A DNA stretch of 64,000 bases from NCBI GenBank assembly GCA_016192945.1, contig JACPTE010000024.1, forward strand, positions 16,001-80,000, read 5' to 3'. Origin of the DNA: Candidatus Woesearchaeota archaeon. GTDB lineage: Archaea; Nanobdellota; Nanobdellia; Woesearchaeales; UBA10216. A program made the position numbers and the translations under genes. Below the pieces are notes generated by a model, which had not been told where the DNA came from, did no database searches, and worked only from the letters and a program-made list of their open reading frames with translations. Of the stretch, positions 29,082-42,182 are shown one piece after another. The first letter of the stretch is position 1. Every line of letters begins with the position of its first letter.

Positions 29082-29173
29082 GCATGTGCAAATTTTTTGT
29101 GTTTTATATATTTTGTCCAAAACCGGCATTATTGAAAACCTCAGTAGCGTGCTCATACATTGAGCCAGATTCG

Positions 29174-29250
29174 GTTCGCTTATGCGAACTTCTTTTCTTT
29201 CCCCCACGCTTACCGAGGGGGAGAAGAAAAGAACCTTTGTTTTACAAAGG
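29174..29250. other. Three tandem hairpins (gttcgc-ttat-gcgaac; 16-bp ttcttttctttccccc/gggggagaagaaaagaa stem; cctttg-tttta-caaagg)
   Basis: Inverted repeats read directly. They overlap the 3' end and stop codon of the 29210-29500 ORF and lie just upstream of the 28644-29081 promoter. Confidence 0.5.
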
Positions 29251-29500
29251 CGAATCTGGCTCTGAATGTGAAGTATATTATCGCGAAAACTGCGTGGATA
29301 AGAACTGAAATGAAGAAGAGCTTCCAGTAGTGGCAGTGCGCGTTGTAGAATTTCTTGTACCAGTCATGCTGCCATAGCCTCTTCTGGAGCGAACTGCCCA
29401 TCAGGCACCTGCATGAGAAAAACACAAGGAACAGCCCTATGATGTTGGTTATCCCAAGCATGAATGTTATTCGTGCTCCGGTTGCAGGCTCTATTAGCAT
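29210..29500 (-). CDS. Small 2-TM membrane protein (hypothetical), last gene of the pyrimidine operon
   Basis: 96 aa. ATG overlaps the pyrF stop. The C-terminus runs through the strong hairpins, so its coding status is uncertain. Confidence 0.35.
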   Translation of the reverse strand: MLIEPATGARITFMLGITNIIGLFLVFFSCRCLMGSSLQKRLWQHDWYKKFYNAHCHYWKLFFISVLIHAVFAIIYFTFRARFAFVKQRFFSSPPR

Positions 29501-30345
29501 CAGATTTCACCTATCTCAGAGTTAATCTCCTTAATTGCCCTTATAGCAGCGCCTGCGAAGTCATCTGTCTGCTGTTTCTCGTATGCATAGTTTATTGAGC
29601 TGCTGCTGTTTATCCTGTGCATTGCCAGGCTGCCATTCCTTCTCAGCACATCTGCAACCTCGTTAGCCAGGCCGCCCTGGGTGCCGACTCCTGGAATGAG
29701 CAGCGGAACCTGCTTGCCTGAATTGGCGAAAAATGAGCTTATTTCAGCAAGCTCTCCTGGGCTGGTTGCTCCTGCAACTGCCCCCAAGCCTTCAATATGC
29801 GAATCCAGCAGCTTCCCGGCTACGTGCATATAAACCTTTTTCCCCTCAGCGCTGAGGTCCTGAAAGTCAGAGGCTCCCTTGTTTGAAGTCCTCACAAGCA
29901 AATAAACGCCCTTTCCCTTGCTGCAGTATCTGAGAAAAGGCTCTATGCTGTCAATGCCCATATATGGGGAAACAGTGACTGCATCTGCCTTCCAGAAGCC
30001 AAAAGCCTCCCTTGCATAAGCTTCGCTGCTGCTTCCAATGTCGCCCCTCTTTGCATCAAGAATCACAGGAATTTTGTGGGATTTCGCGATAACAATTACT
30101 TTCTTAAGCGCCCTTAATCCTGAAAACCCATTCTGTGCAAAGAAGGCATAATTGGGCTTGACAGCAACTGGAACCGAATTATTAGAAACAGCAGCTTCAA
30201 TGATTTCTGAAAAGAACTTTACTATCTTCTTTTCAGAGCTCTGCTCCTTTAAGGGAATCCTCTTGACCACAGGGTCTATTCCCATGCACACTATGCTTTT
30301 TGATTCTTGGGCTTTCTCAACCAGAAGCTCTGTGAACGATTTCAT
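29500..30345 (-). CDS. pyrF: Orotidine-5'-phosphate decarboxylase (long type-2 form)
   Basis: DAKRGDIG motif, (beta/alpha)8 barrel length 281 aa. Confidence 0.9.
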   Translation of the reverse strand: MKSFTELLVEKAQESKSIVCMGIDPVVKRIPLKEQSSEKKIVKFFSEIIEAAVSNNSVPVAVKPNYAFFAQNGFSGLRALKKVIVIAKSHKIPVILDAKRGDIGSSSEAYAREAFGFWKADAVTVSPYMGIDSIEPFLRYCSKGKGVYLLVRTSNKGASDFQDLSAEGKKVYMHVAGKLLDSHIEGLGAVAGATSPGELAEISSFFANSGKQVPLLIPGVGTQGGLANEVADVLRRNGSLAMHRINSSSSINYAYEKQQTDDFAGAAIRAIKEINSEIGEI

Positions 30346-30348
30346 TAT

Positions 30349-30930
30349 TCAGTCAATCTGCTCATCAATCTTTCTTCGCTTGTTTATCTCTGTCAGGAGC
30401 TTTTTTACAAGCGTGTGCGGGTTCTTGTCGTATATGACAGTTGCCCCTGTTTTCTTGTTCATTATCTTGATGAGCTGCCTTAAGTGGTCTGCTATGCCCC
30501 CCGAGCCCTGCATCACGCCTATAATCTGGCCCTCATCATAGGCGATTGTGAACTCATTGAGCGTTCCAACCCTTCCCGCGACTATTATAGTGGCATCGCA
30601 GTTGGTTACGTTCACCACATTCCTGCCCTTGAACCCGAACCCTGTGAATATTATCACATCATAGTTCTTTGTTGGAAACTTGTACCTCTTTGAGTGCTCT
30701 TCAAGGTTTCCTGCTGGCGATATTCCAATCACAAACCCGTCATTATCCTTTGCTCCTCTGGCTGCATCATCAGGGATTCCCTTGCATGCGCCGTTTATGA
30801 GTATGCAGTTGTGCCTGGCGATTTCCCTGCCTAGCTCGTATGCCAGCTTTTTTGCAGGCAAGGTTATTTTGCCCCCTGTGCCGCGCTCAATGGCAGAGCC
30901 CATTATTCCTATTTTGGGTTTCATCTTCAT
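30349..30930 (-). CDS. LOG/TIGR00725-family Rossmann-fold nucleotide-binding protein (putative nucleotide 5'-monophosphate phosphoribohydrolase)
   Basis: KIGIMGSA...GAKDNDGFVIGISP...IIFTGFGFKGRNVVNV...GGIADHL pattern of the LOG/YgdH-like fold. Start taken at internal Met. Confidence 0.7.
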   Translation of the reverse strand: MKMKPKIGIMGSAIERGTGGKITLPAKKLAYELGREIARHNCILINGACKGIPDDAARGAKDNDGFVIGISPAGNLEEHSKRYKFPTKNYDVIIFTGFGFKGRNVVNVTNCDATIIVAGRVGTLNEFTIAYDEGQIIGVMQGSGGIADHLRQLIKIMNKKTGATVIYDKNPHTLVKKLLTEINKRRKIDEQID

Positions 30931-30944
30931 GGCCTCTTTATTCT

Positions 30945-31589
30945 TTATTGTAAATTGTCTTTCTTTGCCCATTCTTCAGGGTTTCTGCTCCATTCAAGGG
31001 CAGTTCGCAGCTCTTCTTTTTTAATATATCCTTTTTCTGCTGCAATTTCCACCAGAATGCTGAAATTGCATAGGGAATTCAGCTTGCAGTTCTGGCTGTC
31101 AAAGCCTTTCCTGGCAGCCTCCATTCCATATGTGAATATGGCAATGCAGTTTTCAACAACAGCGCCCTCCTTTCTTGCGGCAGCAACAGCTGACAATGAG
31201 CTGCCGCCTGTGCTTATCAAATCCTCAATAACCAGGACTTTCTGGCCCTGGGAAACCTTGCCTTCAATCAGGTTTTCCCTGCCGTGGTCTTTTGCTTCCT
31301 TCCTGACATATATCATGGGCTTCTTCAGCTTTTCGGCAACAAGAGCAGCCCACGGGATGCTTGCAGTTGCAACACCTGCAATGACATCAGCCTCAACATT
31401 CTCCTTCCTGATTTTTTTCACAAAATACACTGCAATTGCAGAGCGCTCTGCAGGCATGGAGAGCAGCAGCCTGTTATCGCAATACACAGGGCTTAAGATT
31501 CCTGAAACAAACTTGAATGGATTTGAAGGCCTGAGGATAATGGCATTTGATTTCAGCAATATTTCAGCAACTTTCTTTTCATCAGACAT
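30945..31589 (-). CDS. pyrE: Orotate phosphoribosyltransferase
   Basis: VLVIEDLISTGGS PRTase motif. N-terminus MSDEKKVAEILLKSNAI. Confidence 0.9.
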   Translation of the reverse strand: MSDEKKVAEILLKSNAIILRPSNPFKFVSGILSPVYCDNRLLLSMPAERSAIAVYFVKKIRKENVEADVIAGVATASIPWAALVAEKLKKPMIYVRKEAKDHGRENLIEGKVSQGQKVLVIEDLISTGGSSLSAVAAARKEGAVVENCIAIFTYGMEAARKGFDSQNCKLNSLCNFSILVEIAAEKGYIKKEELRTALEWSRNPEEWAKKDNLQ

Positions 31590-32898
31590 CAAAATCAGCC
31601 TCTTTTCCAGGGCTATTACTGGCAATTTCGCCGTTATTGAAGACCAGCCTTCCGCAGACAATGGTGTGAGTTACTGCTCCCTTCAGTTTCCACCCGTTGA
31701 ATGGTGACCATCCGCATTTCGTGAAAAGTTCATCGTTTTTTATTGTTTTTGTTTTTTTCATGTCAACAATCGTGAAGTCCCCGTCAAAGCCCTGCTCAAT
31801 CCTTCCCTTGCCTCTTATTCCAAAAACAGAGGCAGGGCTTGATGAAGCCAGCTCAACAAGCTTTTGCAGTGAAAGCGCATTCCTGTTCACGGCATCCAGC
31901 ATAAGGGGCATCATTGTCTCAAGCCCTGGCATTCCGGAAGGGGCGTGCCAGTAATCCTGCTCTTTTTCTTCCCTCAGGTGGGGAGCGTGGTCTGTTGCCA
32001 CCATGTCAATAGTGCCGTCGTTAATGTATTTCCAAAGCTCTGAAATTTCCTTTTCACTCCTCAAAGGAGGATTGACCTTGGCATAATTCCCTAGTTTAGA
32101 GGCCTTTTCAGCAGAAAGGAAAAGATGATGGGGCGTGACTTCGCAGGACAGGGTCATTGAACTTTTGTTTGCCTTTACAGCAGAAGCCTCTCCTGCAGTG
32201 CTGATATGGCAGATGTGCAGCCTTGCACTTTTCTTTTTGGCAATTGAAATGGCGCGCTCAACCTCTGATTTTGCCAGCCTGCTGTCCCTTATTTTGAGGT
32301 GAAATGAAGGAATGTCCCTTATGCATTCATTCCTGTATGCTTTGATATTCCTTTTGATGGCATCCTCGTTCTCTGCATGGGCAGCAATCCTTCTTCCAGC
32401 GCCGAAAATCCCCTCAAGCTGGCTCTCGCCAGTGACAAGCAAATCGCCTGTTGAAGAGCCCATGTAAACCTTCAGGGCAGCAATGTTCCCTGCCTTTTTA
32501 ATCTCGCCAAGATTGCTGGTTGCTGCACCGAAATGGAAGCCGAAGTTGACGATGCATCTCTCAGAAGCTATCCTTCTTTTCTCGTCAAGCAGTTTTACAG
32601 AAGTAGTCGGGGGGCTTGAGTTGGGCATGTCAATGAATGTTGTAACGCCGCCTGCTGCTGCAGCCATGCTGGCAGAGCGGAAGTCCTCTTTCCCTGTGAG
32701 CCCGGGCTCCCTGCAATGGACATGGGCATCAATAACTCCGGGGAGGGCAATATTTCCGCGGGCGTCAACAATCTCATCAGAGGATTTTATTGATGATGGT
32801 GCGCTTATCTTTTCTATTTTCCCAAGCTCATTAACAAGTATTCCCTTATTTTCAAGCCTGTCACCAACAAGAATTTTGCAGTTTTTTAATAACAACAT
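31582..32898 (-). CDS. pyrC: Dihydroorotase
   Basis: DAHVHCREPG...ATDHAPH metal-binding motifs. Confidence 0.92.
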   Translation of the reverse strand: MLLLKNCKILVGDRLENKGILVNELGKIEKISAPSSIKSSDEIVDARGNIALPGVIDAHVHCREPGLTGKEDFRSASMAAAAGGVTTFIDMPNSSPPTTSVKLLDEKRRIASERCIVNFGFHFGAATSNLGEIKKAGNIAALKVYMGSSTGDLLVTGESQLEGIFGAGRRIAAHAENEDAIKRNIKAYRNECIRDIPSFHLKIRDSRLAKSEVERAISIAKKKSARLHICHISTAGEASAVKANKSSMTLSCEVTPHHLFLSAEKASKLGNYAKVNPPLRSEKEISELWKYINDGTIDMVATDHAPHLREEKEQDYWHAPSGMPGLETMMPLMLDAVNRNALSLQKLVELASSSPASVFGIRGKGRIEQGFDGDFTIVDMKKTKTIKNDELFTKCGWSPFNGWKLKGAVTHTIVCGRLVFNNGEIASNSPGKEADFDV

Positions 32899-32905
32899 GG
32901 CAATC

Positions 32906-33712
32906 CTAAAGCTTTTCCTTCCTGCTGCTCTTGACTCTGTGATAGCTGCCTAGCTCTGAAATTTTAGCTGCCTGTGCGCTGCTGATGACTGGCCCTTCAG
33001 CACAGGCCCTGATTCCGATTGGGTCAACGCAGCAATGGCCGCACAATCCAAACCCGCATTTCATGTAACGCTCGATGCTGACTTCACAATCAATTTTGTT
33101 TTCATTGCAGATATCCGAAACTGCCTTAAGCATCCTGTCAGGGCCGCAGGCATAAACCCTGTCCACTTTTTGGGCTTTGAACAAATTTTTCAGTGCGTCA
33201 GTCACAAATCCCTTGATGCCTGCACTTCCGTCATCTGTTGTAATTATTAAATTTCCGCTTCCCAGTAATTTTTTTATGCGGTCAGCATAAACAAGCCTTG
33301 CTTTGGAGCGGGCGCCAAGTATGAATTTGACATTGCAGCCTTTTGACACTGCCTCTTCTGCAAGCATGGTAAGCGACGCAGAACCATAGCCTCCGCCAGC
33401 CATGACCAGTTGTTTTGAATTTTTTCCAAGATTATACCCCCTTCCGTATGGCCCCCTGATGCCTACTTTGTCGCCTTCCTTCATTGAGGAAAGCCTGTTT
33501 GAAAAGGGGCCGACTGCAGCAACAGTCAATCCAATCTCGCCTTTTTTCTGGTCGGAATAGCTGACAGCAAATGGCTTTTCATCAATTCCCGGAATCCAGA
33601 GCATTACAAACTGGCCTGGCTTTGCAACCATAGAATGTCTGAGGAAAATGGTTTTTATCCCCTCAGCTTCATCCTTGATTCCCGAAATCCGGATTATTTT
33701 TGGCCTTTCCAT
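32906..33712 (-). CDS. pyrK: Dihydroorotate dehydrogenase electron-transfer subunit (FAD / [2Fe-2S])
   Basis: CGFGLCGHCCVD cluster motif. Ferredoxin-reductase fold. Confidence 0.9.
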   Translation of the reverse strand: MERPKIIRISGIKDEAEGIKTIFLRHSMVAKPGQFVMLWIPGIDEKPFAVSYSDQKKGEIGLTVAAVGPFSNRLSSMKEGDKVGIRGPYGRGYNLGKNSKQLVMAGGGYGSASLTMLAEEAVSKGCNVKFILGARSKARLVYADRIKKLLGSGNLIITTDDGSAGIKGFVTDALKNLFKAQKVDRVYACGPDRMLKAVSDICNENKIDCEVSIERYMKCGFGLCGHCCVDPIGIRACAEGPVISSAQAAKISELGSYHRVKSSRKEKL

Positions 33713-33727
33713 TTTAAGTATCGTAAA

Positions 33728-34651
33728 TTATTTATGGGCAGCTCCTACCATTTCTTTTATTGATGAGTAGCCATTCCTTTGCATTATTTCCTCCATTTCA
33801 GCTGTTACCTTCCTGAAGACATCAATGCCCCTGTAATAAATGCCGGTTCCTATCTCAACAGCGCAGGCACCTGCCATTATGAACTCAACAGCATCCTCGC
33901 CTGTTGTGACTCCGCCAATGCCGATTATAGGAACCTTAACAGCCTTGTGGATTTCATAAACGCAGTTGACAGCCACAGGCTTTAATGCAGGGCCGCTGAC
34001 CCCTCCCTGCCTGTTATGCAGGACAGGCCTTGCGACATCAACATTGATGACCATCCCCGGCATCGTATTTATTGCTGAAATTGCATCAGCACCCGCTTCA
34101 ACAACTGCCCTCGCAACTTTCTTTATGTCCGGGACATTGGGAGCCAGCTTTGCAATAATTGGAACTTTTGTTTTTGACTTTACAATACGTATGACCTCGG
34201 CAGCCGCTTTCTCATTCAAGGCAAAAGCCTCGCCGAAATCACTCGCAGTATTAGGGCAGGACAGGTTAATTTCCAGCATCTGAGGATTCAGCGTTGAAAG
34301 CCTTTCAGCAACATAGCCGAATTCCTCTTTCGTGCCTCCAAAAAGGCTGGGAAAAACAGGAACGCCTGCGTTTTTCATCGCAAACTCTATTTCACCAAGG
34401 CTGTTGTCAACGCCGGAATTGGGAAGCCCCACAGCGTTAAGGAAACCCTTGTCAAACTCCACAAGAACAGGGTTTGCGTGCCCTTCCCTTTCTTTGGGAC
34501 CCAATGATTTGGGAACAATGGCACCAGCACCTTTCTTTGCCGCATAAACACAGGCAGCGCCTGATACTCCCATCACTCCGGAAGCAAGAATAGTGGGGTT
34601 TGAAAGCCTTATGTTCAGTATTTTCGTGCTGAGGTCAATTTGCATTTTCAT
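33728..34651 (-). CDS. pyrD: Dihydroorotate dehydrogenase catalytic subunit (class 1B)
   Basis: NPTILASGVMG...GLPNSG...GGV.TGEDA motifs. Confidence 0.92.
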   Translation of the reverse strand: MKMQIDLSTKILNIRLSNPTILASGVMGVSGAACVYAAKKGAGAIVPKSLGPKEREGHANPVLVEFDKGFLNAVGLPNSGVDNSLGEIEFAMKNAGVPVFPSLFGGTKEEFGYVAERLSTLNPQMLEINLSCPNTASDFGEAFALNEKAAAEVIRIVKSKTKVPIIAKLAPNVPDIKKVARAVVEAGADAISAINTMPGMVINVDVARPVLHNRQGGVSGPALKPVAVNCVYEIHKAVKVPIIGIGGVTTGEDAVEFIMAGACAVEIGTGIYYRGIDVFRKVTAEMEEIMQRNGYSSIKEMVGAAHK

Positions 34652-34662
34652 CCTTATAACAG

Positions 34663-34947: not shown

Positions 34948-34979
34948 CTTATTGAACCATATAAATGTTTCTTAGTATA

Positions 34980-37900
34980 TCAATACTCATCCCGCGGCTT
35001 GATTTCCAGTTCAGACTCCTTCACTGAAGTTATTGCCTCTGCCAGCATTCTTGCCAGCTGGAGGTTTGTGATAAGCGGGATTGAAAAGTCAGCCGCCTTT
35101 CTCCTTATGACATATTCATCATCCAATTCTTCCTGTGTGAAAGCGCTTGGAATGTTAATCACCAGCTCAAGCTTGTTGCCATTGGTTCCGTTCAGGAACT
35201 CAATAATGTTAGGGCTCTTGTTCTCGTGAACCTTGTATAGAATGGTTGAGCTTATTCCATTTTCCCCCAGGAATAATCCTGTGTGCTCAGTTGAAAACAG
35301 CTTGAATCCTGCATTGTCAAGGATTTTAGCGAATGGCAGGAACTTATACCTTGATTTGTCACCGCCAATGCTTACAAGGATATTCTTCTTTGGAAGCTTT
35401 GAGCCTGCTGCAATTATCGCCTTCAGATATGCATCATAAACGTTCTTTCCAAGGCAGGCTACTTCGCCGGTAGAAGCCATCTCAACGCTTGCAATGGGGT
35501 CGGCGCCTTTAAGCCTTGCAAAGGAAAACTGGGGGGATTTGACTCCTGCAAAAGAAACTCCTGCAGATGCATCTCCGTGGTCTTCATGTGATTTTCCAGC
35601 AATCACGTTTGTAGAAATCTCGGCAAAATTCTTCCCGGAAATCTTGGAAACAAAAGGAAAGCTCCTTGAAGCGCGCAAGTTGCATTCTATGACCTTTATT
35701 TCATTGTCTCTTGCAAGGAACTGTATGTTAAAAGGCCCTGTGATTTTCAATTCTGAAGCGATTCTTCTTGCAATATCCTCAATCTGCCTTGAGGTTTCAG
35801 TGTATATTTTCTTGGCAGGGAAAACCATTGTAGCGTCTCCGGAATGTGTGCCTGCGTTCTCAATGTGCTCTGTGACTGCAAACAGGGTTATCTTCCCGTT
35901 GTCAGCGACTGCATCAAGCTCAATTTCCTTTGCATTGATTATGAACTTGCTTATCACAACAGGATACTCGCTGCTGACTTTGGAAGCCTTTGTAAGGTAA
36001 AGCTCAAGGTCATTGTCGTTGAAGGCGATGTTCATTGCAGCGCCGCTCAGCACGTAAGAGGGGCGGACAAGCACGGGGTATCCTGCATTTTTTGCAAACT
36101 CTGTCGCATCATTTATGTTTGTAAGCTCTTTCCATTTTGGCTGGTCAATGTTCAGCTTGTCAAGCATCTTTGAGAATTTCTGCCTGTCTTCAGCCCTGTC
36201 AATGCTTTCAGCGCTTGTGCCGAGAATTTTCACTCCGGCAGAAGAAAGCTTCATTGCAATGTTGTTTGGAATCTGGCCGCCCATTGAGATAATCACGCCT
36301 TCTGGCTGCTCCAGCCCATAAATGTCCATCACAGTTTCAGCGCTTATTTCGTCAAAATAAAGCTTGTCGCAGACATCATAATCAGTGCTGACAGTCTCCG
36401 GATTATAGTTAATCATAATGGTTTCATATCCGATATTTCTCAATGCCCTGACTGAATTCACACAGCACCAGTCAAACTCAACCGAGCTGCCTATCCTGTA
36501 AACACCAGAGCCGATGACAATCACTTTCTTTTTTTTGCTTATGAAATCAATGTCATGCTCAGTTGCGTTATAAGTGAAGTACAGGTAGTTTGTTACAGCA
36601 GGATATTCAGCAGCGAGAGTGTCTATCTGCTTTACAAACGGGACAATATTGTTTTCTTTTCTTATCTGCCTTATTTCTGAAAAAGGAACGCCTGTGATTA
36701 CTGAAATCTGTTTGTCGCTGAAACCCTGCTTTTTGGCTCTTTCCAGAATTTCTGGAGCAGGCCCGTATGAAATCAGCTGTTTTTCAGTCTCTATTACATT
36801 CGCGATTTTATGAAGGAACCATTTGCCAATTCCGGTTTTTTTATGGATTAGCTCTATTGAATAGCCTTCCATTAAGGCCTGGACAACAGCGAACAAACGC
36901 TCATCAGTTGGAGACTCAAGCTCCTTATCCACATCATATGAAAAATCATTCCCAACCAGCCCGTGCGCACGGATGTCAAGCATCCTTACAGCTTTCTGGA
37001 TTGCCTCCTCAAAAGTCCTTCCAATCGCCATGACTTCTCCAACGCTTTTCATAGAGCTGCCTATATTTCTTGAAACATGCCTGAACTTCTTCAGGTCCCA
37101 TCTGGGGATTTTTACGACAACATAGTCAAGTGCCGGCTCAAAGCATGCTACAGTCTTCTGAGTGATTGAATTTTTTATTTCAGCCAGCGAATATCCCAGC
37201 GCCAGTTTTGCAGCGACAAAAGCAAGAGGGTAGCCAGTTGCCTTTGAAGCAAGGGCAGAACTCCTTGAAAGCCGGGCATTCACTTCTATAATCCTGTAAT
37301 CGTCAGACTCCTTGCCCAACGCATACTGGATATTGCATTCCCCAACAATGCCCAGGTGCCTAATCAGCTTAATGGAAATCTCGCGCAGATTGTGGTATTC
37401 TTTGTTGTCCAATGTCTGTGAAGGCGCAACCACGATGCTATCGCCTGTATGGATGCCCATTGGGTCAAGATTTTCCATGTTGCAGACAGTGATGCAATTG
37501 TCATATGCATCCCGAACAACTTCATATTCAATTTCCTTCCAGTGCTCAAGATACTCTTCAACCAAAATCTGGGGGGAATTTGAAAAAGCCTGCGCTGCAG
37601 TCTCAATAATGTCGGAATCATTCCTGCAGAGGCCGCTGCCCAACCCGCCGAGGGCATAAGCTGCCCTTATCATCACAGGATAGCCAAGCTTGTTTGCTGC
37701 AGTGATTGCATCAGCTATTTTGTTGACTGCATGGCTTTTGGGCGTTTTCAGGCCTATTTCACTTAATTTTTTCACAAACAATTCACGGTCTTCAGTTGCC
37801 TTTATTGCTTCAACAGGCGTGCCGAGGACCTTCACTCCGTATTTCCCAAGAACGCCAGAATCATGCAAGGCAACGCCGCAGTTTAATGCAGTCTGGCCTC

Positions 37901-38168
37901 CGAAGCCCAATAAAATGCCTTCTGGCCTTTCCTTCTTGATTATTTTTTCTACAAATTCTGGAGTGATTGGAAGAAAATATACCTTATCTGCCATTTTCTC
38001 GTCGGATTGGACTGTGGCAATGTTCGCATTTACAAGCACTACTTCTATGCCCTCCTCGCGCAAACTTTTCTCGGCTTGTGCTCCACTATAGTCAAATTCT
38101 CCTCCTTGACCAATGGAAAGGGCTCCAGATCCCAATATCAATATTTTTTTTATTTCAGTTTTTTCCAT
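34980..38168 (-). CDS. carB: Carbamoyl-phosphate synthase large subunit
   Basis: 1062 aa, two ATP-grasp repeats, N-terminus MEKTEIKKILILGSGALSIGQGGEFDYSG. Confidence 0.95.
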   Translation of the reverse strand: MEKTEIKKILILGSGALSIGQGGEFDYSGAQAEKSLREEGIEVVLVNANIATVQSDEKMADKVYFLPITPEFVEKIIKKERPEGILLGFGGQTALNCGVALHDSGVLGKYGVKVLGTPVEAIKATEDRELFVKKLSEIGLKTPKSHAVNKIADAITAANKLGYPVMIRAAYALGGLGSGLCRNDSDIIETAAQAFSNSPQILVEEYLEHWKEIEYEVVRDAYDNCITVCNMENLDPMGIHTGDSIVVAPSQTLDNKEYHNLREISIKLIRHLGIVGECNIQYALGKESDDYRIIEVNARLSRSSALASKATGYPLAFVAAKLALGYSLAEIKNSITQKTVACFEPALDYVVVKIPRWDLKKFRHVSRNIGSSMKSVGEVMAIGRTFEEAIQKAVRMLDIRAHGLVGNDFSYDVDKELESPTDERLFAVVQALMEGYSIELIHKKTGIGKWFLHKIANVIETEKQLISYGPAPEILERAKKQGFSDKQISVITGVPFSEIRQIRKENNIVPFVKQIDTLAAEYPAVTNYLYFTYNATEHDIDFISKKKKVIVIGSGVYRIGSSVEFDWCCVNSVRALRNIGYETIMINYNPETVSTDYDVCDKLYFDEISAETVMDIYGLEQPEGVIISMGGQIPNNIAMKLSSAGVKILGTSAESIDRAEDRQKFSKMLDKLNIDQPKWKELTNINDATEFAKNAGYPVLVRPSYVLSGAAMNIAFNDNDLELYLTKASKVSSEYPVVISKFIINAKEIELDAVADNGKITLFAVTEHIENAGTHSGDATMVFPAKKIYTETSRQIEDIARRIASELKITGPFNIQFLARDNEIKVIECNLRASRSFPFVSKISGKNFAEISTNVIAGKSHEDHGDASAGVSFAGVKSPQFSFARLKGADPIASVEMASTGEVACLGKNVYDAYLKAIIAAGSKLPKKNILVSIGGDKSRYKFLPFAKILDNAGFKLFSTEHTGLFLGENGISSTILYKVHENKSPNIIEFLNGTNGNKLELVINIPSAFTQEELDDEYVIRRKAADFSIPLITNLQLARMLAEAITSVKESELEIKPRDEY

Positions 38169-39837
38169 TGTGCCTCAAATACTCGCGGAATACATCAACA
38201 GCAGAGGGAGAAAGCTTTCCTTCAGCAAGAAATTCTCTTACTTCACCGATGCCCATAAACCTTCCCTCAGCGACTTCAGAACTGTCAAGGGTGATTGGGC
38301 CGTTGTAAACGCACTTGAAGACAGACCTGTGTACATTGTTCTCTTTTCTGTTTGACCTCAGCTTGAACATAAGGGAAAGCTTTGCTCCAGTAATTCCCGC
38401 CTCCTCAAAGAGCTCCCTCTTTGCAGCCTCCTCGTAACTCTCGCCAGACCTTACTGAACCGCCGAATTTGACATCCCACAATCCGGGATAAAGCTTTAGG
38501 TGGGTGGCTCTCATGTGGACAAAAAGCTCTGCTTTTGAATTGAACACCATTGTGTTTGAAGTGCGGTGAAGGAGGCTGTTTTCCATTATTTCCTTCCACG
38601 GAACACTTCGTATCACTGCATCTGACTCGTCAACAATGTCAATAAATTCCTCATGCGAATCCCTGAATTTAAGGAGATTGGTAAGCAAGTCAGGGCGATT
38701 GCTGGATATGATGTCTGGCCCAAGCCCGATCATTGAATTGATATCCTCCTCTGTATCAGGATTCCAGACTCCAACTTTAAGCCCGTTTTTCCTGCAGTCG
38801 CTCATTATCTTCCTGTTTATGAATTTAAAATTGTGAAGAAGGATGCTTGCCCCGGCATCCTTTGCCAGCTCAATATTATTCTCTGTTTTAACGCATATGA
38901 GGCCTGTTTCAAGATTGCTTATGCTCCTGGCCTTTCTTAGCCTTTCATGGTTAAACGAAATTACGACAACAGTTTTCTCTGCCTTTCCTCGTTTCACAGC
39001 ATCAACAACCTGCTCCTCAAGAGAATCATCCTTCAGCTCAACATGAAGGATAACTTTGCCTTTTATCACAGATATCACTTCATCAAGAGTGGGTATCTTT
39101 TCGCCTTTTCCTGCATCCAGCTTCCTAAGCTCAGCCAACGTAAAGTCTGACACCTTTCCCCTGCCGTTGGTAGTTCTGTCCAGTGTAACGTCATGAATGA
39201 CCGCAGCCTTGCCATCCTTTGTAATCCTCACGTCTATCTCCACCATATCTACGCCAAGCTCAATGCCCTTCCTGATTGCCCTAATTGTGTTCTCAGGCTC
39301 CAAGATTCCGGCTCCCCTGTGGCCTGTCACTTTTATCTTCTTAAGTTCAAGATATCCTTTGAATGTGACTTCTGCCCCGGGACTTAATTTCCCCCTGTCA
39401 AGATATTCTTTCATCTCTCCTTCAGCCAAAAACCTGATTTCGTCTATTTCTTCATCCTGCTTTCTTATATGGCCATCGTAAACTATCCTGTAAACCTGAT
39501 AGTTGGCATTGGCTTTTTGTGAACGGAGCTTTGCATTGAAAATGCATTCAAGCTCTTTTGCTTCAATCCCCAGCTCTTCCTTTAGCTCCCTGATTGCTGT
39601 CTCTTCGTAAGACTCCCCTGTTTCCAGAGTGCCCGCTATTCCGATATCCCACATTCCAGGGTAAACATCCTTCTTCATTGACCTTTTCTGGGCAAGGAGC
39701 TTTCCTTCAGAATTGAGAACAATAACCCTTGCAACCCTGTTAAGAAGCGCTCCTTTCCTTACCTCTGCTCTTGTAGCCTGCCCGATGACCTCACCAGCTT
39801 CATTTATCAAATCGATAATTTCTCCCATTTTATTCAC
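38155..39837 (-). CDS. Tri-domain fusion: Nudix hydrolase - glycerophosphodiester phosphodiesterase (GDPD) - Nudix hydrolase
   Basis: Nudix boxes GESYEETAIRELKEELGI and GESYEEAAKRELFEEAGI. Central HRGAG...ENT...EIDVRITKDG...HD..LDRTTNG GDPD motifs. Confidence 0.8.
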   Translation of the reverse strand: MNKMGEIIDLINEAGEVIGQATRAEVRKGALLNRVARVIVLNSEGKLLAQKRSMKKDVYPGMWDIGIAGTLETGESYEETAIRELKEELGIEAKELECIFNAKLRSQKANANYQVYRIVYDGHIRKQDEEIDEIRFLAEGEMKEYLDRGKLSPGAEVTFKGYLELKKIKVTGHRGAGILEPENTIRAIRKGIELGVDMVEIDVRITKDGKAAVIHDVTLDRTTNGRGKVSDFTLAELRKLDAGKGEKIPTLDEVISVIKGKVILHVELKDDSLEEQVVDAVKRGKAEKTVVVISFNHERLRKARSISNLETGLICVKTENNIELAKDAGASILLHNFKFINRKIMSDCRKNGLKVGVWNPDTEEDINSMIGLGPDIISSNRPDLLTNLLKFRDSHEEFIDIVDESDAVIRSVPWKEIMENSLLHRTSNTMVFNSKAELFVHMRATHLKLYPGLWDVKFGGSVRSGESYEEAAKRELFEEAGITGAKLSLMFKLRSNRKENNVHRSVFKCVYNGPITLDSSEVAEGRFMGIGEVREFLAEGKLSPSAVDVFREYLRHNGKN

Positions 39838-40339
39838 TCTTCTCAGTATATTTGTTGAATATCATGGCTCCGTCCAAGGCAAAAACGCCATTTGAAATAA
39901 GTTCTGTTACTTCAGAAGTGCTTGCGTGCCTTACTTCATCCACTTCACCCGTATGTAGCTCTATTTTTCCATTATAGACCAGCTTGAATACCCTTGTGTT
40001 CGTATTGTATGAATCAGACCTGTATTTGACATCAAACAGGTGTCTCAGCTCATTTACTGTATAACCATCTATGCCAAGCTCCTCTTTCAAGCCCCGTAAC
40101 GCAGCAGCTTCATAAGGCTCACTTCTCAATACAGTTTCAGACATGCCCAAATCCCAGCAGCCAGGGAATATATCCTTTGAGTCAGGTCTTTTCTGGACAA
40201 TGAACCTGCCAAAATAATCCACAATTATCACATATACTGTCCTGTGTATCAATGCTTTTTCATCAACATCTTTTCTTGTTGCCTTGCCAACTATTGCGTC
40301 TTCATCATTCACTATATCAATCATTTCTTCAGGAGTCAT
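39830..40339 (-). CDS. Nudix hydrolase (stand-alone, paralogous to the fused Nudix domains)
   Basis: Nudix box SEPYEAAALRGLKEELGI. 169 aa. Confidence 0.8.
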   Translation of the reverse strand: MTPEEMIDIVNDEDAIVGKATRKDVDEKALIHRTVYVIIVDYFGRFIVQKRPDSKDIFPGCWDLGMSETVLRSEPYEAAALRGLKEELGIDGYTVNELRHLFDVKYRSDSYNTNTRVFKLVYNGKIELHTGEVDEVRHASTSEVTELISNGVFALDGAMIFNKYTEKSE

Positions 40340-41118
40340 TTTTTTCTAACTGCTGCTATCAGGTAGTGTCTTTTAACAATGAATTTAGGATGCATTTCAA
40401 AAGTCCTTTTCAGAGCAGCAGCCAATATGCTGTATCTTTTTTTGAATGGGATTTCCAATATCTTTTCACTTCTCCAGGGTATTTTATAATAGTCCATGAG
40501 GAATTTCAGATTATTTTTTCCCAGGGGAAGAATGCTCCAGCGCAAAACCCTGAATTTGCCCTTTCGCAGGGCTTCCTTAAATGCCTTATTCCTGGAATTA
40601 GGGTAATCCAGATAAGCCTTCTTACCAATATCCCTTTTTTCCAACTCAACCTTAATATTTCTTTCAAGTTCCTTTTTGAACTCATTGCTTGCCTTGTCTA
40701 TGCCAATTGTTATTCCAGTCCTGTACAAAGGTACGGCAAAAATCAAAAGGCCTTTTGGCTTCAGAATCTTGCTAATTGATGAGATGGCCTTATTTATTCT
40801 TGTAAACTGCAGCACAAGGCTTGCAAATACAACATCAACAGGCTCTTTTATCATAGAAATCTTCTCAGCAGGCAGCTTTCGGATAGTGATGTTTTGCTTG
40901 CGGAATTTCATTCTGCAATATGCAACCATATCGGTGCTTTTGTCAATAGCTATTATTTTTCCTTTCTTTCCAACCTGCTTGTGCAGCAGGTTCAGGTAAA
41001 TTCCGGTCCCGCAACCCATGTCAACTACTGTATCGCCTTTTTTTATGCGATTTTTTATTTCTGATACCATGGGCTTTAGCATGAAAGCATGCTTTTTGTA
41101 CAGCTGCGATATTCTCAT
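40336..41118 (-). CDS. Class I SAM-dependent methyltransferase
   Basis: Motif I VVDMGCGTG. Rossmann-like order of motifs. Confidence 0.8.
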   Translation of the reverse strand: MRISQLYKKHAFMLKPMVSEIKNRIKKGDTVVDMGCGTGIYLNLLHKQVGKKGKIIAIDKSTDMVAYCRMKFRKQNITIRKLPAEKISMIKEPVDVVFASLVLQFTRINKAISSISKILKPKGLLIFAVPLYRTGITIGIDKASNEFKKELERNIKVELEKRDIGKKAYLDYPNSRNKAFKEALRKGKFRVLRWSILPLGKNNLKFLMDYYKIPWRSEKILEIPFKKRYSILAAALKRTFEMHPKFIVKRHYLIAAVRKK

Positions 41119-42182
41119 TTCATCATCCCCAAAAACTCATCAAACAAAAATCCAGCGTCAACAGGGCCTGGAGTTGCCTCCGGGTGAAATTGGACGCTGA
41201 AGAAAGGCTTGTTCCTGTGCCTTAGCCCCTCGTTAGTGCCGTCATTGGCATTAATGAATGATTCCTCCCATCCTGATGGCATTTTCTTCATGTTGACTGC
41301 AAACCCGTGATTCTGGGAAGTTATATAGCATCTTTTTGTCTGGATATTGCTGCATGGCTGGTTCTGGCCCCTGTGGCCATATTTCAGCTTGTACGTATCT
41401 CCGCCTGCTGCCAAGGCCAGAATCTGGTTGCCCAGGCATATCCCGAATATTGGCATTTCCAGCTTCATCGCTGAGGCAACATTCCTTATCGTTTCCCTGC
41501 ACATCTTCGGGTCCCCAGGGCCGTTGCTTATTACCATGCCATCAAAAGTTTCCCTCGTGAAGTCATAATCCCATGGAACCCTTATTACTGTGCAGTTTCT
41601 TTCAGCGAGGTTCCTGATTATGCTGTTTTTCACTCCGCAATCAACCAGCAGTATCTTCCTGCTGCCTTTTTCGTTGTAGACAATTTTCTTTTTGACAGAA
41701 ACTTCAGCAACAAGATTGCGCTTGTTTGGGTCGTCAATAGGAGCGTCTTTGTTGCTTACGGTTAATTTTCCGAGCATTACCCCCTTTTCCCTTAGCTTCT
41801 TTGTCAAGGCTCTGGTGTCAACGCCATGAATGGCAGGTATATTGTGCTCCTTCAGCCACTCTGAAAGGCTTTTGGCAGCTTTCCAGTGGCTGTAATCAGG
41901 GGAGTAATCAGCAATTATAAGGCCGCTTGCCTGGATTTTATCTGACTCAAAATGCCTTGATAGCCCAAAAGAATCCCTCTCGTCAGCAGGAACCCCGTAA
42001 TTCCCAATAAGCGGGTAAGTTAGAACAAGAATCTGCCCCTTATAGCTGGGGTCGGTCAGGCTTTCAGGATAGCCAACCATTCCTGTGTTGAACACGACCT
42101 CGCCAGAAACAGATGTGCCTGCACCGAAAGAAACGCCATTAAAACGAGTTTTGTCTTCAAGCTCAATATAGCCAGTCATCAA
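41115..42182 (-). CDS. carA: Carbamoyl-phosphate synthase small (glutaminase) subunit
   Basis: Class I GATase with GICLGNQ. CarA N-terminal domain. Confidence 0.93.
   Translation of the reverse strand: MMTGYIELEDKTRFNGVSFGAGTSVSGEVVFNTGMVGYPESLTDPSYKGQILVLTYPLIGNYGVPADERDSFGLSRHFESDKIQASGLIIADYSPDYSHWKAAKSLSEWLKEHNIPAIHGVDTRALTKKLREKGVMLGKLTVSNKDAPIDDPNKRNLVAEVSVKKKIVYNEKGSRKILLVDCGVKNSIIRNLAERNCTVIRVPWDYDFTRETFDGMVISNGPGDPKMCRETIRNVASAMKLEMPIFGICLGNQILALAAGGDTYKLKYGHRGQNQPCSNIQTKRCYITSQNHGFAVNMKKMPSGWEESFINANDGTNEGLRHRNKPFFSVQFHPEATPGPVDAGFLFDEFLGMMK

What the first reader, a model, noticed from the sequence alone, without database searches (positions are those of the whole stretch)
29210..42182. 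Pyrimidine super-operon with foreign-looking genes spliced between carA and carB and between pyrE and pyrF
carA, pyrD, pyrK, pyrC, pyrE and pyrF are chained on one strand with 1-14 nt overlaps or gaps, consistent with a single transcript. Inserted in frame-coupled fashion are: a SAM methyltransferase, a stand-alone Nudix, a Nudix-GDPD-Nudix fusion (all three between carA and carB, which are normally adjacent), an UPF0175-like small protein (after carB), and a LOG/TIGR00725-family nucleotide phosphoribohydrolase-like protein (between pyrE and pyrF). Start/stop overlaps of 4, 4, 8 and 14 nt argue that the inserted genes are co-translated with CPSase subunits. This suggests a dedicated nucleotide-sanitising or salvage/turnover module wired to de novo UMP synthesis. 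A LOG-type enzyme could cleave (d)NMPs to ribose-5-P plus base, and Nudix enzymes could hydrolyse NDP-X or aberrant nucleotides.
Basis: partly seen in the sequence, partly recalled or inferred. Interest (0 to 1): 0.75.

Follow-up and report, generated by a model that had tools for sequence, protein, structure and literature searches.

The report
Hydrolase genes embedded in archaeal pyrimidine operon
In a tiny-genome archaeon (Woesearchaeota), the genes for making pyrimidines are packed into one operon that also carries a Nudix hydrolase module wedged between the two carbamoyl-phosphate synthetase genes and a LOG-like protein next to pyrF. Both arrangements recur in related genomes, which gives a first functional lead for two uncharacterised protein families.

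Summary
On the minus strand, carA-MTase-Nudix-(Nudix-GDPD-Nudix)-carB-UPF0175-pyrD-pyrK-pyrC-pyrE-SLOG4-pyrF-orf96 form one block with junctions of -14 to +32 nt. It has no TATA-like octamer and no T>=6 tract inside.

The block is a slice of a ~52 kb arginine, pyrimidine, purine/C1 and guaA supercluster. The source is a Candidatus Woesearchaeota MAG (NCBI proteins MBI3034198-209).

Two insertions are conserved in relatives:
- A YfcD-type Nudix lies between carA and carB in all 7 loci where both genes are visible. carA overlaps the next gene by 4 nt in every one. The module holds 1-3 Nudix domains, sometimes with GDPD, HAD or an MTase.
- A SLOG-cluster-4 protein lies directly upstream of pyrF in 5 of 6 loci found through SLOG4 itself.

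The MTase, the GDPD insertion and UPF0175 are lineage-specific. They sit in an operon that relatives also fill with toxin-antitoxin genes, transporters and other hydrolases.

"Foreign-looking" holds only mildly (MTase GC 0.38, Nudix169 0.40, against about 0.44-0.50 for the biosynthetic genes). SLOG4 is not a LOG-family member by curated cut-offs.

A nucleotide turnover or house-cleaning role is plausible but unproven. No paper found in the library describes either arrangement. I rate this a new variant of a known kind, of moderate interest.

The parts
42763..43683 (-). pyrB (aspartate carbamoyltransferase catalytic chain). It lies upstream of the reported block and forms its own unit. TATA TTTATAAA at 43710-43717 is 34 nt before the ATG, and a T7 run at 43685-43691 directly precedes the ATG.
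   Evidence: Pfam OTCace_N/OTCace; sequence; TATA and T-run scans.
42181..42213 (-). carA promoter region. TATA TTTATAAA at 42206-42213 is 34 nt before the ATG, and a T8 run at 42181-42188 is followed by G-ATG. The layout 'TTAAcTTTAtAAA-N17-18-C-T(6-8)-G-ATG' is conserved upstream of carA in L001, L002, L003/L004 and L009.
   Evidence: Only 3 runs of T>=7 occur on this strand in 64 kb, and two of them are these.
41115..42179 (-). carA, the CPSase small (glutaminase) subunit, 354 aa.
   Evidence: PF00988 and PF00117; 48-77% identity to carA in relatives.
40336..41118 (-). Class I SAM-dependent methyltransferase, 260 aa, with a C-terminal cap domain. It belongs to a small clade-specific family. 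GC is 0.384. It overlaps carA and Nudix169 by 4 nt each.
   Evidence: Pfam; 12 homologues only; AF2 model with pLDDT 92; Foldseek finds small-molecule MTases, best TM 0.69; present in L001 at the same place.
39830..40339 (-). Nudix 'A-type' domain protein, 169 aa. Its Nudix box is degenerate (ETVLRSEPYEAAALRGLKEELGI: the first G is E, and RE is RG). This signature is conserved in the N-terminal domain of the tandem Nudix proteins of relatives.
   Evidence: PF00293; alignment A1; Nudix-box table.
38155..39828 (-). Nudix(B)-GDPD-Nudix(C) fusion, 557 aa. Both Nudix boxes are canonical. The GDPD HRG...PENT / ExD / HD motifs are intact. It overlaps carB by 14 nt.
34980..38168 (-). carB, the CPSase large subunit, 1062 aa, with the C-terminal MGS-like allosteric domain.
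   Evidence: Pfam.
34663..34947 (-). UPF0175-family small protein, 94 aa, antitoxin-like, with no adjacent toxin gene. It is lineage-specific (absent in L001, L002, L003, L175 and L173).
   Evidence: PF03683, 46 bits; relatives.
33728..34651 (-). pyrD (dihydroorotate dehydrogenase B, catalytic subunit).
   Evidence: PF01180.
32906..33712 (-). pyrK (DHOD B electron-transfer subunit).
   Evidence: PF10418, PF00175 and PF00970.
31582..32898 (-). pyrC (dihydroorotase).
   Evidence: PF01979.
30945..31589 (-). pyrE (orotate phosphoribosyltransferase), 214 aa from ATG 31589, with an 8-nt overlap with pyrC.
   Evidence: PF00156; sequence.
30349..30930 (-). SLOG cluster 4 / TIGR00725-like protein, 193 aa (NCBI 'LOG family protein' MBI3034200.1).
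   Evidence: PF18306, 139.8 bits; TIGR00725, 87 bits, below its cut-off of 106.9; PDB 1rcu, 6y01 and MoCo carrier 2iz5; directly upstream of pyrF in L003, L169, L171, L173, L174 and L175.
29500..30345 (-). pyrF (OMP decarboxylase), 281 aa.
   Evidence: PF00215.
29210..29500 (-). orf96, a small protein with two hydrophobic segments. It is conserved after pyrF in L173 (48% identity over residues 9-79). Its last ~19 codons run into an inserted structured element.
29162..29262 (-). A 101-nt element that folds into a three-way junction (12-bp outer stem plus three hairpins). It sits at the 3' boundary of the unit and is absent from the orf96 allele of a near-identical strain.
   Evidence: Fold: -75.8 kcal/mol against -41.2 +/- 4.5 for shuffles, z = -7.65; no Rfam match; not repeated in the window; P0252 diverges from orf96 after residue 77.
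29081..29110 (-). Probable internal promoter of the next unit. TATA TATATAAA at 29103-29110 is 29 nt before the in-frame ATG at 29081 (orf145, then purA...).

Best explanation
**What is shown**

The region is the carA-to-orf96 transcription unit of a nucleotide-biosynthesis supercluster in a Woesearchaeota (DPANN) archaeon.

The unit is bounded by archaeal TATA boxes (34 nt before carA; 29 nt before the ATG at 29081). It has no internal TATA octamer or oligo-T tract.

Two accessory genes are old, clade-conserved residents of the pathway operon:
1. A YfcD-type Nudix diphosphatase module lies between carA and carB. carA overlaps the next gene by 4 nt in all 7 loci, and the module overlaps carB in 6 of them. 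Each module has at least one canonical catalytic domain (C-type). Most also have one or two degenerate partner domains with the 'ET..RG' box (the L011 module is a single canonical domain). In this lineage the module is enlarged by a GDPD phosphodiesterase inserted between two Nudix domains and by an upstream methyltransferase.
2. A SLOG-cluster-4 protein lies directly upstream of pyrF.

The methyltransferase, the GDPD insertion and the UPF0175 gene are lineage-specific additions. The operon in this clade tolerates many insertions.

**What is inferred**

- The Nudix module is made in step with CPSase. It hydrolyses a pyrimidine nucleoside di- or triphosphate, or an NDP-X compound of the CDP-alcohol type, to the monophosphate.
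- The GDPD domain cleaves a glycerophosphodiester in the same substrate stream.
- SLOG4 binds or cleaves a nucleoside 5'-monophosphate near the OMP-to-UMP step.
- Together they act as pool-trimming, salvage or house-cleaning enzymes tied to de novo UMP synthesis.
For: **Anatomy and coupling**

**Unit boundaries**
- Strict TATA octamers: 13 on this strand in 64 kb, three of them 29-34 nt before start codons, and none in 29210-42179.
- No T>=6 run on the coding strand inside the unit, against 108 on the opposite strand of the window.

**Conservation of carA-Nudix-carB**
- Seen in the window, L001, L002, L003/4, L009, L011 and L175, with overlapping junctions.
- L173 and L175 were retrieved through SLOG4, so independently of the Nudix. 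Both show a Nudix upstream of carB.

**Fusion and fission of the same parts**
- One 717-aa A-B-GDPD-C protein in L001.
- A-B, GDPD, C and HAD as separate ORFs in L009.
- An A-C tandem in L002, L003 and L175, and C alone in L011.

**Catalytic motifs**
- Canonical Nudix boxes in domains B and C, and a conserved degenerate box in A.
- GDPD motifs intact.

**Family placement**
- The nearest characterised relative is DR0079. [quoted passage not shown]

**SLOG4**
- Directly upstream of pyrF in 5 of 6 SLOG4-ascertained loci, with a 4-nt overlap in L171 and L174.
- It keeps the GTxxE motif and an invariant Arg that align with the LOG nucleotide-binding and catalytic region.

**Other hydrolases in relatives' clusters**
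HAD (L009), Metallophos (L173, L174) and MazG-like (L175).
Against: - No substrate is known for YfcD itself. The link to DR0079 is distant (51 bits over the N-terminal 90 residues).
- Close tandem-Nudix relatives also occur in a mevalonate-pathway cluster (L005-7) and inside a bacterial 2-oxoacid dehydrogenase cluster (L008). The family is therefore not pyrimidine-specific.
- SLOG4's closest solved relatives include a non-catalytic cofactor carrier (MoCo carrier protein). A 52%-identical SLOG4 (L172) is not near any pyr gene.
- The same operons hold clearly unrelated insertions (toxin-antitoxin genes, transporters), so position alone is weak evidence of function.
- Most Nudix-bearing loci were found by searching with the Nudix, which is an ascertainment bias. 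I could not survey Woesearchaeota that have carAB but might lack the Nudix.
- There are no transcript data.
Confidence: 0.45

Rival explanations
1. Hitch-hikers. In these reduced genomes the long, strongly expressed nucleotide operons act as landing pads. The Nudix, GDPD, MTase, UPF0175 and SLOG4 genes are simply expressed from them and have no functional tie to pyrimidine synthesis.
For: - Relatives carry many unrelated insertions at various junctions: PIN/MazE, HEPN-MNT, RlaP, HepT, CitMHS and EamA transporters, a DNA-alkylation repair gene and a non-orthologous MTase.
- MTase, Nudix169 and UPF0175 have lower GC, like the HEPN-MNT pair.
- Tandem-Nudix relatives occur in unrelated contexts.
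Against: - The Nudix at carA|carB and the SLOG4 at |pyrF hold the same position across lineages down to 48% carA identity. The truly variable insertions do not.
- Overlapping stop and start codons are maintained at the Nudix junctions (4 nt after carA in all 7 loci; 4-20 nt into carB in 6).
Confidence: 0.25
2. The Nudix module is a physical accessory of CPSase. It would be a third subunit or a ligand-sensing regulator, with the degenerate A-type domain as the binding module, rather than a free house-cleaning enzyme.
For: - It always lies between the two subunit genes with translational-coupling overlaps.
- The degenerate Nudix box is conserved in one domain of the tandem, which suggests binding rather than catalysis.
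- Non-enzymatic Nudix proteins are a recognised class (PMC5389931).
Against: - At least one canonical, presumably active Nudix box is always present. L011 has only that one.
- carB keeps its own allosteric MGS-like domain.
- No Nudix-CPSase fusion was seen among the listed homologues (best 120, with precomputed Pfam domains) or (best 150, no domain data).
Confidence: 0.15
3. The module (small-molecule MTase, IDI/YfcD-like Nudix, GDPD and sometimes HAD) acts on lipid head-group or isoprenoid diphosphate compounds. These would be CDP-alcohols, glycerophosphodiesters or prenyl diphosphates scavenged by this host-dependent archaeon. Its link to pyrimidines would only be the release of CMP.
For: - The GDPD domain is a bona fide glycerophosphodiesterase fold.
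- A tandem-Nudix relative sits in a mevalonate-pathway cluster with HAD and GHMP kinases.
- The MTase model resembles phospho-base and prenyl-diphosphate MTases among others.
Against: - The ancestral and most widespread form has no GDPD and no MTase (L002, L003, L011, L175).
- The IDI signature is not met: TIGR02150 scores are below cut-off and the box is RE, not RR.
- The MTase fold hits are generic, with TM at most 0.69.
Confidence: 0.12
4. A nucleotide-centred defence or conflict system (SLOG, Nudix and MTase) embedded in the operon.
For: Domain-level PADLOC hits: MTase to mad2, Nudix to candidate PDC-S07, SLOG4 weakly to PsyrA.
Against: - The hits are generic domain similarities.
- The genes are 7 kb apart, each tied to a biosynthetic gene, with no effector or sensor partners.
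- They are conserved as parts of a biosynthetic operon.
Confidence: 0.03

Closest known systems
Bacterial pyrimidine operons (e.g. Bacillus subtilis pyrR-P-B-C-AA-AB-K-D-F-E) and E. coli carAB (own knowledge; carAB regulation in PMC6245113)
   Same: - De novo UMP genes are chained on one strand with overlapping stop and start codons.
- carA and carB are co-transcribed.
- A T-run lies at the start of the pyrB and carA units, as in the UTP-sensitive promoters of E. coli.
   Different: - carA and carB are separated by 1-4 accessory genes.
- There is no PyrR, and no PyrI in this window.
- The promoters are archaeal TATA-type.
- The operon continues into purine, C1 and guaA genes and is preceded by the whole arginine pathway.
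E. coli YfcD (PDB 2fkb), an uncharacterised Nudix hydrolase, and its neighbour YfcE phosphodiesterase
   Same: - Canonical Nudix box.
- In E. coli the Nudix gene lies 57 nt downstream of a phosphodiesterase gene. This parallels the Nudix+GDPD arrangement here and the Metallophos genes in L173 and L174.
   Different: - Tandem or triple domains, with a conserved degenerate partner domain.
- Fusion to GDPD.
- Fixed position inside the CPSase operon.
- The L173 Metallophos is only weakly similar to YfcE (31% over 51 aa).
Deinococcus radiodurans DR0079 (PDB 1q27), a Nudix that prefers CDP/CTP/dCDP/dCTP (Buchko et al. 2008, cited in PMC5158307)
   Same: It is the nearest biochemically characterised sequence relative (E 8e-13). 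It offers a pyrimidine-nucleotide substrate precedent.
   Different: The similarity is distant and partial. DR0079 is a single-domain enzyme with no operon link to CPSase.
LOG / PpnN nucleotide 5'-monophosphate phosphoribohydrolases, and the SLOG-family MoCo carrier protein (PDB 2iz5) and TM1055-like 1rcu
   Same: Rossmann-like SLOG fold. The GTxxE motif and a conserved Arg lie in the ligand-phosphate/catalytic region.
   Different: - It scores below the LOG family cut-offs (PF03641 20.6 < 27; TIGR00730 26 < 96).
- Its closest solved relatives are of unknown function or are a non-catalytic carrier.
- Its fixed position beside pyrF is not described in the papers found.
House-cleaning or damage-pre-emption hydrolases encoded beside the pathway they serve (e.g. 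Nudix with thiamin genes, MazG/Nudix with nucleotide genes; own knowledge)
   Same: The logic is the same: a hydrolase co-expressed with a biosynthetic operon.
   Different: The substrate and the damage product are unknown here. The position between two subunit genes of one enzyme is unusual.

Membership tests
Nudix hydrolase (PF00293) | Nudix fold and Pfam score above the gathering threshold | tested here: met
   [not shown]
Nudix hydrolase (PF00293) | Catalytic Nudix box GX5EX7REUXEEXGU | tested here: met
   Met for domains B (GTLETGESYEETAIRELKEELGI) and C (GSVRSGESYEEAAKRELFEEAGI). NOT met for Nudix169, the A-type domain (first G is E; RE is RG). The same change is conserved in relatives.
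YfcD family (NCBIfam NF011922) | Full-length similarity to E. coli YfcD above the curated cut-off of 152 bits | tested here: inconclusive
   [not shown]
Type 1 IPP isomerase (TIGR02150) | Score above 105.8 bits, and the IDI box variant with RR instead of RE | tested here: not met
   Scores are 73.8 bits (two domains) and 46.2 bits. The boxes carry RE or RG, not RR (IDI box from PMC5389931).
Glycerophosphodiester phosphodiesterase (PF03009) | GDPD TIM barrel with the HRG..PENT, ExD and HD motifs | tested here: met
   [not shown]
LOG family (PF03641 / TIGR00730) | Score above the curated cut-offs | tested here: not met
   PF03641 scores 20.6, below 27. TIGR00730 scores 26.1, below 96.35. LOG structures are reached only at E 1e-4 with a profile.
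SLOG cluster 4 (PF18306) / TIGR00725 | Score above the cut-off | tested here: met
   PF18306 scores 139.8 against 26.3. TIGR00725 scores 87.0, below 106.9, so that narrower family is not met.
UPF0175 antitoxin-like family (PF03683) as part of a toxin-antitoxin pair | UPF0175 domain plus an adjacent toxin gene (usually PIN) | tested here: not met
   The domain is met (46.3 bits against 27.9). The neighbours are carB and pyrD, with no toxin ORF.
Class I SAM-dependent methyltransferase | Rossmann MTase domain with a GxGxG SAM motif | tested here: met
   Methyltransf_11/25/31 score 60-63 bits. DxGCGTG is invariant in the family. The AF2 model matches small-molecule MTases. Substrate class was not testable.
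Glutamine-dependent CPSase (carA + carB) | Small chain with CPSase_sm and GATase domains; large chain with two ATP-grasp halves, an oligomerisation domain and an MGS-like domain | tested here: met
Single operon (one transcript, carA to orf96) | No internal promoter or terminator; one mRNA | tested here: inconclusive
   Sequence proxies agree: junctions are at most 32 nt, and there is no strict TATA octamer or T>=6 run inside. The sigma-70/terminator scan does not apply to archaea. No RNA data are available.

The most novel reading that the evidence does not exclude
The YfcD-type Nudix module and the SLOG4 protein may be genuine, previously unrecognised components of the de novo pyrimidine pathway in these archaea. 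For example, the Nudix could be a CPSase-bound enzyme that removes a CPSase-specific side product or sets the local UMP/CMP signal. SLOG4 could hand over or proof-read OMP between PyrE and PyrF. In addition, the conserved T8 tract at the carA start could be an archaeal counterpart of UTP-sensitive reiterative transcription.
Probability: 0.12. Interest if true: 0.8.

Novelty: new variant of a known kind. Interest (0 to 1): 0.5.

Why it matters
YfcD-type Nudix proteins (1358 cluster representatives at E<=1e-10) and the TIGR00725 / SLOG-cluster-4 proteins have no assigned physiological role. A fixed, translationally coupled position inside the CPSase genes and beside pyrF, in several independent genomes, is a concrete context-based lead. 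It narrows the substrate screen to pyrimidine nucleotides and NDP-X compounds.

It also shows how the few biosynthetically capable Woesearchaeota organise arginine, pyrimidine, purine and C1 metabolism. Most of the phylum has minimal nucleotide synthesis (PMC8421398). These organisms place the four pathways in one ~52 kb block with compact promoter and terminator signals. That is useful for judging host dependence and for reading archaeal operon regulation.

Tried and rejected
- **Sigma-70 promoter and intrinsic-terminator scan.** Hit counts were near shuffle expectation, and the model does not apply to an archaeon. I replaced it with TATA-octamer and oligo-T scans.
- **Genome scan with the diverse alignment A1.** I redid it with the C-domain alignment A2.
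- **Metagenome scan with A2.** It returned only distant bacterial Nudix genes and no further carA-Nudix-carB loci. A tblastn of all 168 loci found none either.
- **pyrI remnant or conserved gene in the 583-nt pyrB-carA gap.** Nothing was found. The 180-aa plus-strand ORF and the 85-aa minus-strand ORF have no Pfam hit and no homologue in any locus.
- **TMP-TENI domain on P0006.** The protein is only GDPD plus Nudix (397 aa), so this Pfam hit is probably another TIM-barrel model overlapping GDPD.
- **IPP isomerase identity.** Rejected.
- **Defence-system reading.** PADLOC gave only generic domain hits.
- **Rfam on the structured element.** Nothing.
- **Locating the source contig through P0121.** No record. 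The organism was identified through the cluster look-up instead.
- **The MTase in L173 between pyrK and pyrC.** It is not orthologous to the window MTase (no tblastn hit). A 46%-identical one (P0264) is on a contig of the same length (170,554 bp) as L173's, probably the same contig; its position there is unknown.
- **AFDB fold library.** Unavailable.
- **Literature searches.** I found no paper describing a Nudix between carA and carB, or a SLOG protein beside pyrF.

Full report
**Observation**

The minus strand of 29210-42182 carries, in order of transcription:
- carA (41115-42179)
- a class I SAM methyltransferase (40336-41118)
- a 169-aa Nudix protein (39830-40339)
- a 557-aa Nudix-GDPD-Nudix fusion (38155-39828)
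- carB (34980-38168)
- a UPF0175 protein (34663-34947)
- pyrD, pyrK, pyrC and pyrE (30945-31589)
- a SLOG-cluster-4 / TIGR00725-like protein (30349-30930)
- pyrF (29500-30345)
- a 96-aa small protein with two hydrophobic segments (29210-29500)

The ORFs come, Pfam, and NCBIfam.

Reading the junctions in the sequence confirms the ATGA overlaps carA/MTase and MTase/Nudix169, and the 14-nt overlap of the fusion with carB. It also confirms an 8-nt overlap pyrC/pyrE, a 1-nt overlap pyrF/orf96, and gaps of 1-32 nt elsewhere.

The in-frame ATG one base after the stop fits the homologues and the NCBI product of 557 aa.

The window comes from a Candidatus Woesearchaeota MAG (proteins MBI3034198-MBI3034209, contig 96,565 bp). 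NCBI's gene calls agree with mine.

**The block is a slice of something larger**

Every gene from about 55.8 kb down to 4.2 kb is on the same strand, apart from one large surface-protein gene.
- **Arginine pathway:** argB-D-C-J, GNAT, argF, GNAT, argG, argH.
- **Pyrimidines:** pyrB, then the reported block.
- **Purines, C1 and GMP:** purA, a split purH, purF, purD, purN, 5-formyl-THF cyclo-ligase, SHMT, folD, purM, purL, purQ, purE, a HAD hydrolase, purC, purB, two purP genes, a HEPN-MNT pair and guaA.

PurP marks the organism as an archaeon, so the sigma-70 and terminator scan is not informative.

Woesearchaeota as a phylum are described as having minimal nucleotide synthesis. A few subgroups have gained arginine and nucleotide pathways (PMC8421398). 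This genome is one of the capable ones.

**Transcription-unit logic**

I scanned for archaeal signals instead.

Strict TATA-like octamers occur 13 times on the coding strand in 64 kb. Three of them lie in the few real intergenic gaps, at fixed distances from start codons:
- TTTATAAA, 34 nt before the pyrB ATG
- TTTATAAA, 34 nt before the carA ATG
- TATATAAA, 29 nt before an in-frame ATG at 29081, just downstream of orf96

None lies within 29210-42179.

Runs of six or more T, the archaeal termination signal, number 108 on the opposite strand but only 16 on the coding strand. None is inside the block.

pyrB is a separate unit, followed by a 583-nt gap that is not conserved in the closest relative. 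A further promoter probably starts the purine part.

This is sequence inference only. No RNA data exist here.

**Comparative test: the Nudix module**

Homologues of the fusion are very rare. Their contigs show the same arrangement.

| Locus | Source | Arrangement |
|---|---|---|
| L001 | GCA_053531215.1 | argF..argG-argH-pyrB-carA-MTase-[one 717-aa Nudix-Nudix-GDPD-Nudix protein]-carB-pyrD-pyrK, no UPF0175 |
| L002, L175 | 1.09 and 1.14 Mb circular contigs | carA-[333-aa tandem Nudix]-carB with 4-nt overlaps; no MTase, no GDPD |
| L003/L004 | ENA contigs of 213,682 and 48,610 bp | carA-[338-aa tandem Nudix]-carB, with a 4-nt overlap after carA and a 20-nt overlap into carB; no MTase, no GDPD |
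| L009 | GTDB representative | carA-[Nudix-Nudix]-[GDPD]-[Nudix]-[HAD]-carB as separate ORFs |
| L011 | 'Nanoarchaeota' MAG, carA only 48% identical | carA-[single 167-aa Nudix]-carB-carB-pyrB-pyrI-pyrD-pyrK, with 4- and 17-nt overlaps |

L173 and L175 were retrieved through SLOG4, not through the Nudix. Both show a Nudix (plus GDPD in L173) immediately upstream of carB.

Alignment and a Nudix-box table resolve three domain types:
- **A-type** (the window's 169-aa protein). Its degenerate box is conserved: the first G is E, and RE is RG.
- **B-type**, with a canonical box here but a degenerate one in L009.
- **C-type**, always canonical, and the only domain present in L011.

The core is therefore carA-Nudix(C)-carB. 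The GDPD domain was inserted between two Nudix domains in one sub-lineage. Fusion and fission of the same parts in different genomes argues that the Nudix and GDPD parts work together.

**Comparative test: SLOG4**

The SLOG4 protein is common in Woesearchaeota (740 hits at E<=1e-10).
- It lies directly upstream of pyrF in L003, L169, L171, L173, L174 and L175, with a 4-nt overlap in L171 and L174.
- A 52%-identical copy in L172 is solitary.
- In several relatives other genes separate pyrE from SLOG4. There SLOG4 has its own TATA box of the same 'cagTTAAcTTTATAAA' type as carA.

The conserved pair is therefore SLOG4-pyrF rather than pyrE-SLOG4.

**What the inserted proteins are**

*Nudix domains.* They are YfcD-type.
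- Domain C aligns end to end with E. coli YfcD (28% identity, E 4e-18).
- YfcD is uncharacterised.
- The nearest characterised relative by sequence is DR0079. [quoted passage not shown]
- IPP isomerase membership fails.

*Methyltransferase.* It belongs to a 12-member Woesearchaeal family. It models with pLDDT 92 and resembles small-molecule MTases that have a C-terminal cap, with no specific match.

*SLOG4.*
- It passes PF18306 but not the LOG models.
- Its nearest structures are 1rcu, 6y01 and the MoCo carrier protein. LOG enzymes are reached only at E 1e-4.
- The GTxxE motif and an invariant Arg are conserved. They are also present in the non-catalytic carrier, so they do not prove catalysis.

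*UPF0175.* It is a solo antitoxin-like gene.

'Foreign-looking' is weakly true. MTase GC is 0.384, Nudix169 0.400 and UPF0175 0.421, similar to the HEPN-MNT pair. The biosynthetic pyr and pur genes are about 0.44-0.50, the fusion is 0.450 and SLOG4 is 0.476.

Relatives' clusters hold many other insertions:
- PIN/MazE, RlaP and HepT toxin-antitoxin-type genes
- CitMHS and EamA transporters
- a non-orthologous MTase
- further hydrolases: HAD, Metallophos and MazG-like

Insertion into this operon is therefore common and, by itself, weak evidence of function. What sets the Nudix and SLOG4 apart is that they keep the same position across deep divergence.

So does the E. coli pairing of yfcE (a phosphodiesterase) with yfcD.

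Against a pyrimidine-specific role, tandem-Nudix relatives also lie in a mevalonate cluster and in a bacterial 2-oxoacid dehydrogenase cluster.

**Most likely mechanism and rivals**

*Best reading (confidence about 0.45 for the functional part; high for the anatomy and conservation).* A catalytically active YfcD-type Nudix, paired with a degenerate partner domain, is produced in step with CPSase. It hydrolyses pyrimidine NDP/NTP or NDP-X compounds to NMP. In this lineage GDPD adds cleavage of a glycerophosphodiester. SLOG4 binds or cleaves an NMP at the OMP-to-UMP step.

*Rivals:*
- neutral hitch-hiking (0.25)
- a CPSase-bound subunit or regulator (0.15)
- a lipid head-group or isoprenoid-diphosphate module whose only link to pyrimidines is CMP release (0.12)
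- a defence system (0.03; PADLOC gave only generic hits)

**Novelty**

Each protein is annotated generically in NCBI, and each family is known. I found no paper describing a Nudix between carA and carB, or a SLOG protein beside pyrF.

The C-type clade is small: 27 cluster representatives at E<=1e-30 among 1.84 billion.

I class this as a new variant of a known kind, namely a biosynthetic operon with embedded accessory hydrolases. Interest is moderate, because it gives testable substrate hypotheses for two orphan families.

**Other things seen**

1. A T7 run and a T8 run lie immediately 5' of the pyrB and carA start codons. They are two of only three T>=7 runs on this strand. The carA arrangement (TATA-N17-18-C-T(6-8)-G-ATG) is conserved in four relatives while the spacer is not.
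   - It could be an oligo-T terminator that insulates the unit, a melting region of the promoter, or an archaeal analogue of UTP-sensitive reiterative transcription.
   - That mechanism is known for E. coli pyrBI and carAB (PMC6245113).
2. A 101-nt element (29162-29262) folds into a very stable three-way junction (z = -7.65). It replaces the end of orf96 relative to a near-identical strain.
3. A 57-nt repeat precedes three genes of the arginine cluster. Its core is recognisable upstream of a GNAT gene in the arginine cluster of L001, so it is likely a shared operator-promoter.

Noticed in passing
window 42181-42188 and 43685-43691 (- strand); L001, L002, L003/L004 and L009 upstream of carA: A T8 run and a T7 run lie directly 5' of the carA and pyrB ATGs, 17-18 nt downstream of a TTTATAAA box. 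They are two of only three T>=7 runs on this strand in 64 kb. The carA layout (TATA-N17-18-C-T(6-8)-G-ATG) is conserved in four relatives while the spacer sequence is not. Candidate roles are a UTP-sensing (reiterative transcription) site, an insulating oligo-T terminator, or a promoter melting element.
   Followed up: partly
window 29162-29262 (- strand): A 101-nt element folds into a three-way junction (12-bp outer stem, three hairpins; -75.8 kcal/mol, z = -7.65). It has no Rfam match and is single-copy in the window. It overlaps the 3' end of orf96. The orf96 allele of a near-identical strain (P0252, 81 aa) diverges 7 nt upstream of the element's 5' end (after residue 77), so the element looks like a small insertion.
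   Followed up: partly
window 49850-49906, 51555-51611 and 55776-55832: Three copies of a 57-nt sequence (79-82% identical) lie at the called 5' ends of two GNAT genes and argB. They contain repeated TGTCYTATTT boxes and a TTATAA. The core (TGTCCTG..TTGGTCAATA.GCTTA.AA) also occurs upstream of a GNAT gene in the arginine cluster of L001. It is likely a shared operator-promoter of the arginine cluster, and the true starts of these three genes are probably downstream of it.
   Followed up: partly
window 4184-55833: Nearly the whole de novo arginine, pyrimidine, purine, folate-C1 and GMP gene set lies in one ~52 kb same-strand supercluster. It belongs to a phylum described as mostly unable to make nucleotides. 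It includes two purP genes, a split purH, and purE and purL with extra length.
   Followed up: partly
window 42183-42762: The 583-nt gap between pyrB and carA holds no conserved gene. There is no pyrI anywhere in the window. A 180-aa plus-strand ORF (42247-42789) and an 85-aa minus-strand ORF have no family hit and no homologue in any fetched locus. The gap is not alignable with the 400-nt gap in L001.
   Followed up: yes
window ~43772-46768 (+ strand): A large (~1000 aa) Cys-rich protein with an N-terminal signal anchor, CDYCTPSW-like repeats and a C-terminal membrane anchor is transcribed divergently from pyrB. It has no Pfam hit. It is absent in L001, where argH abuts pyrB. It is probably a surface protein inserted between the arginine and pyrimidine units.
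   Followed up: no
window 5710-6692; 28644-29081; 24893-25420; 20072-20686: A HEPN-MNT toxin-antitoxin-type pair (GC 0.39-0.40) lies between purP2 and guaA. Three orphan ORFs inside the purine part (about 145, 175 and 204 aa) have no family hits and no homologues in relatives' clusters.
   Followed up: partly
L173 7756-8262; L174 9965-10474; L175 18331-18732; L009 3918-4547; E. coli L176 8635-9789: Relatives carry other small hydrolases inside the same cluster. Metallophos lies between pyrC and pyrE (L173) and after pyrF (L174). A MazG-like gene lies between purF and purD (L175). A HAD gene follows the Nudix genes (L009). In E. coli the YfcD Nudix gene lies 57 nt downstream of the YfcE phosphodiesterase gene on the same strand.
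   Followed up: partly
proteins P0059, P0066, P0085, P0100, P0102, P0115, P0118, P0046 and P0044: YfcD-like Nudix domains are fused to KsgA/RrnaAD-type methyltransferases, to HAD and to alpha/beta hydrolases in other organisms. The MTase-Nudix fusions echo the MTase-Nudix gene pair here.
   Followed up: no
window 57740-57828 (+ strand): An 89-nt tRNA passes the Rfam tRNA threshold (48.8 bits), but ARAGORN cannot assign its anticodon. It may contain an archaeal intron.
   Followed up: no
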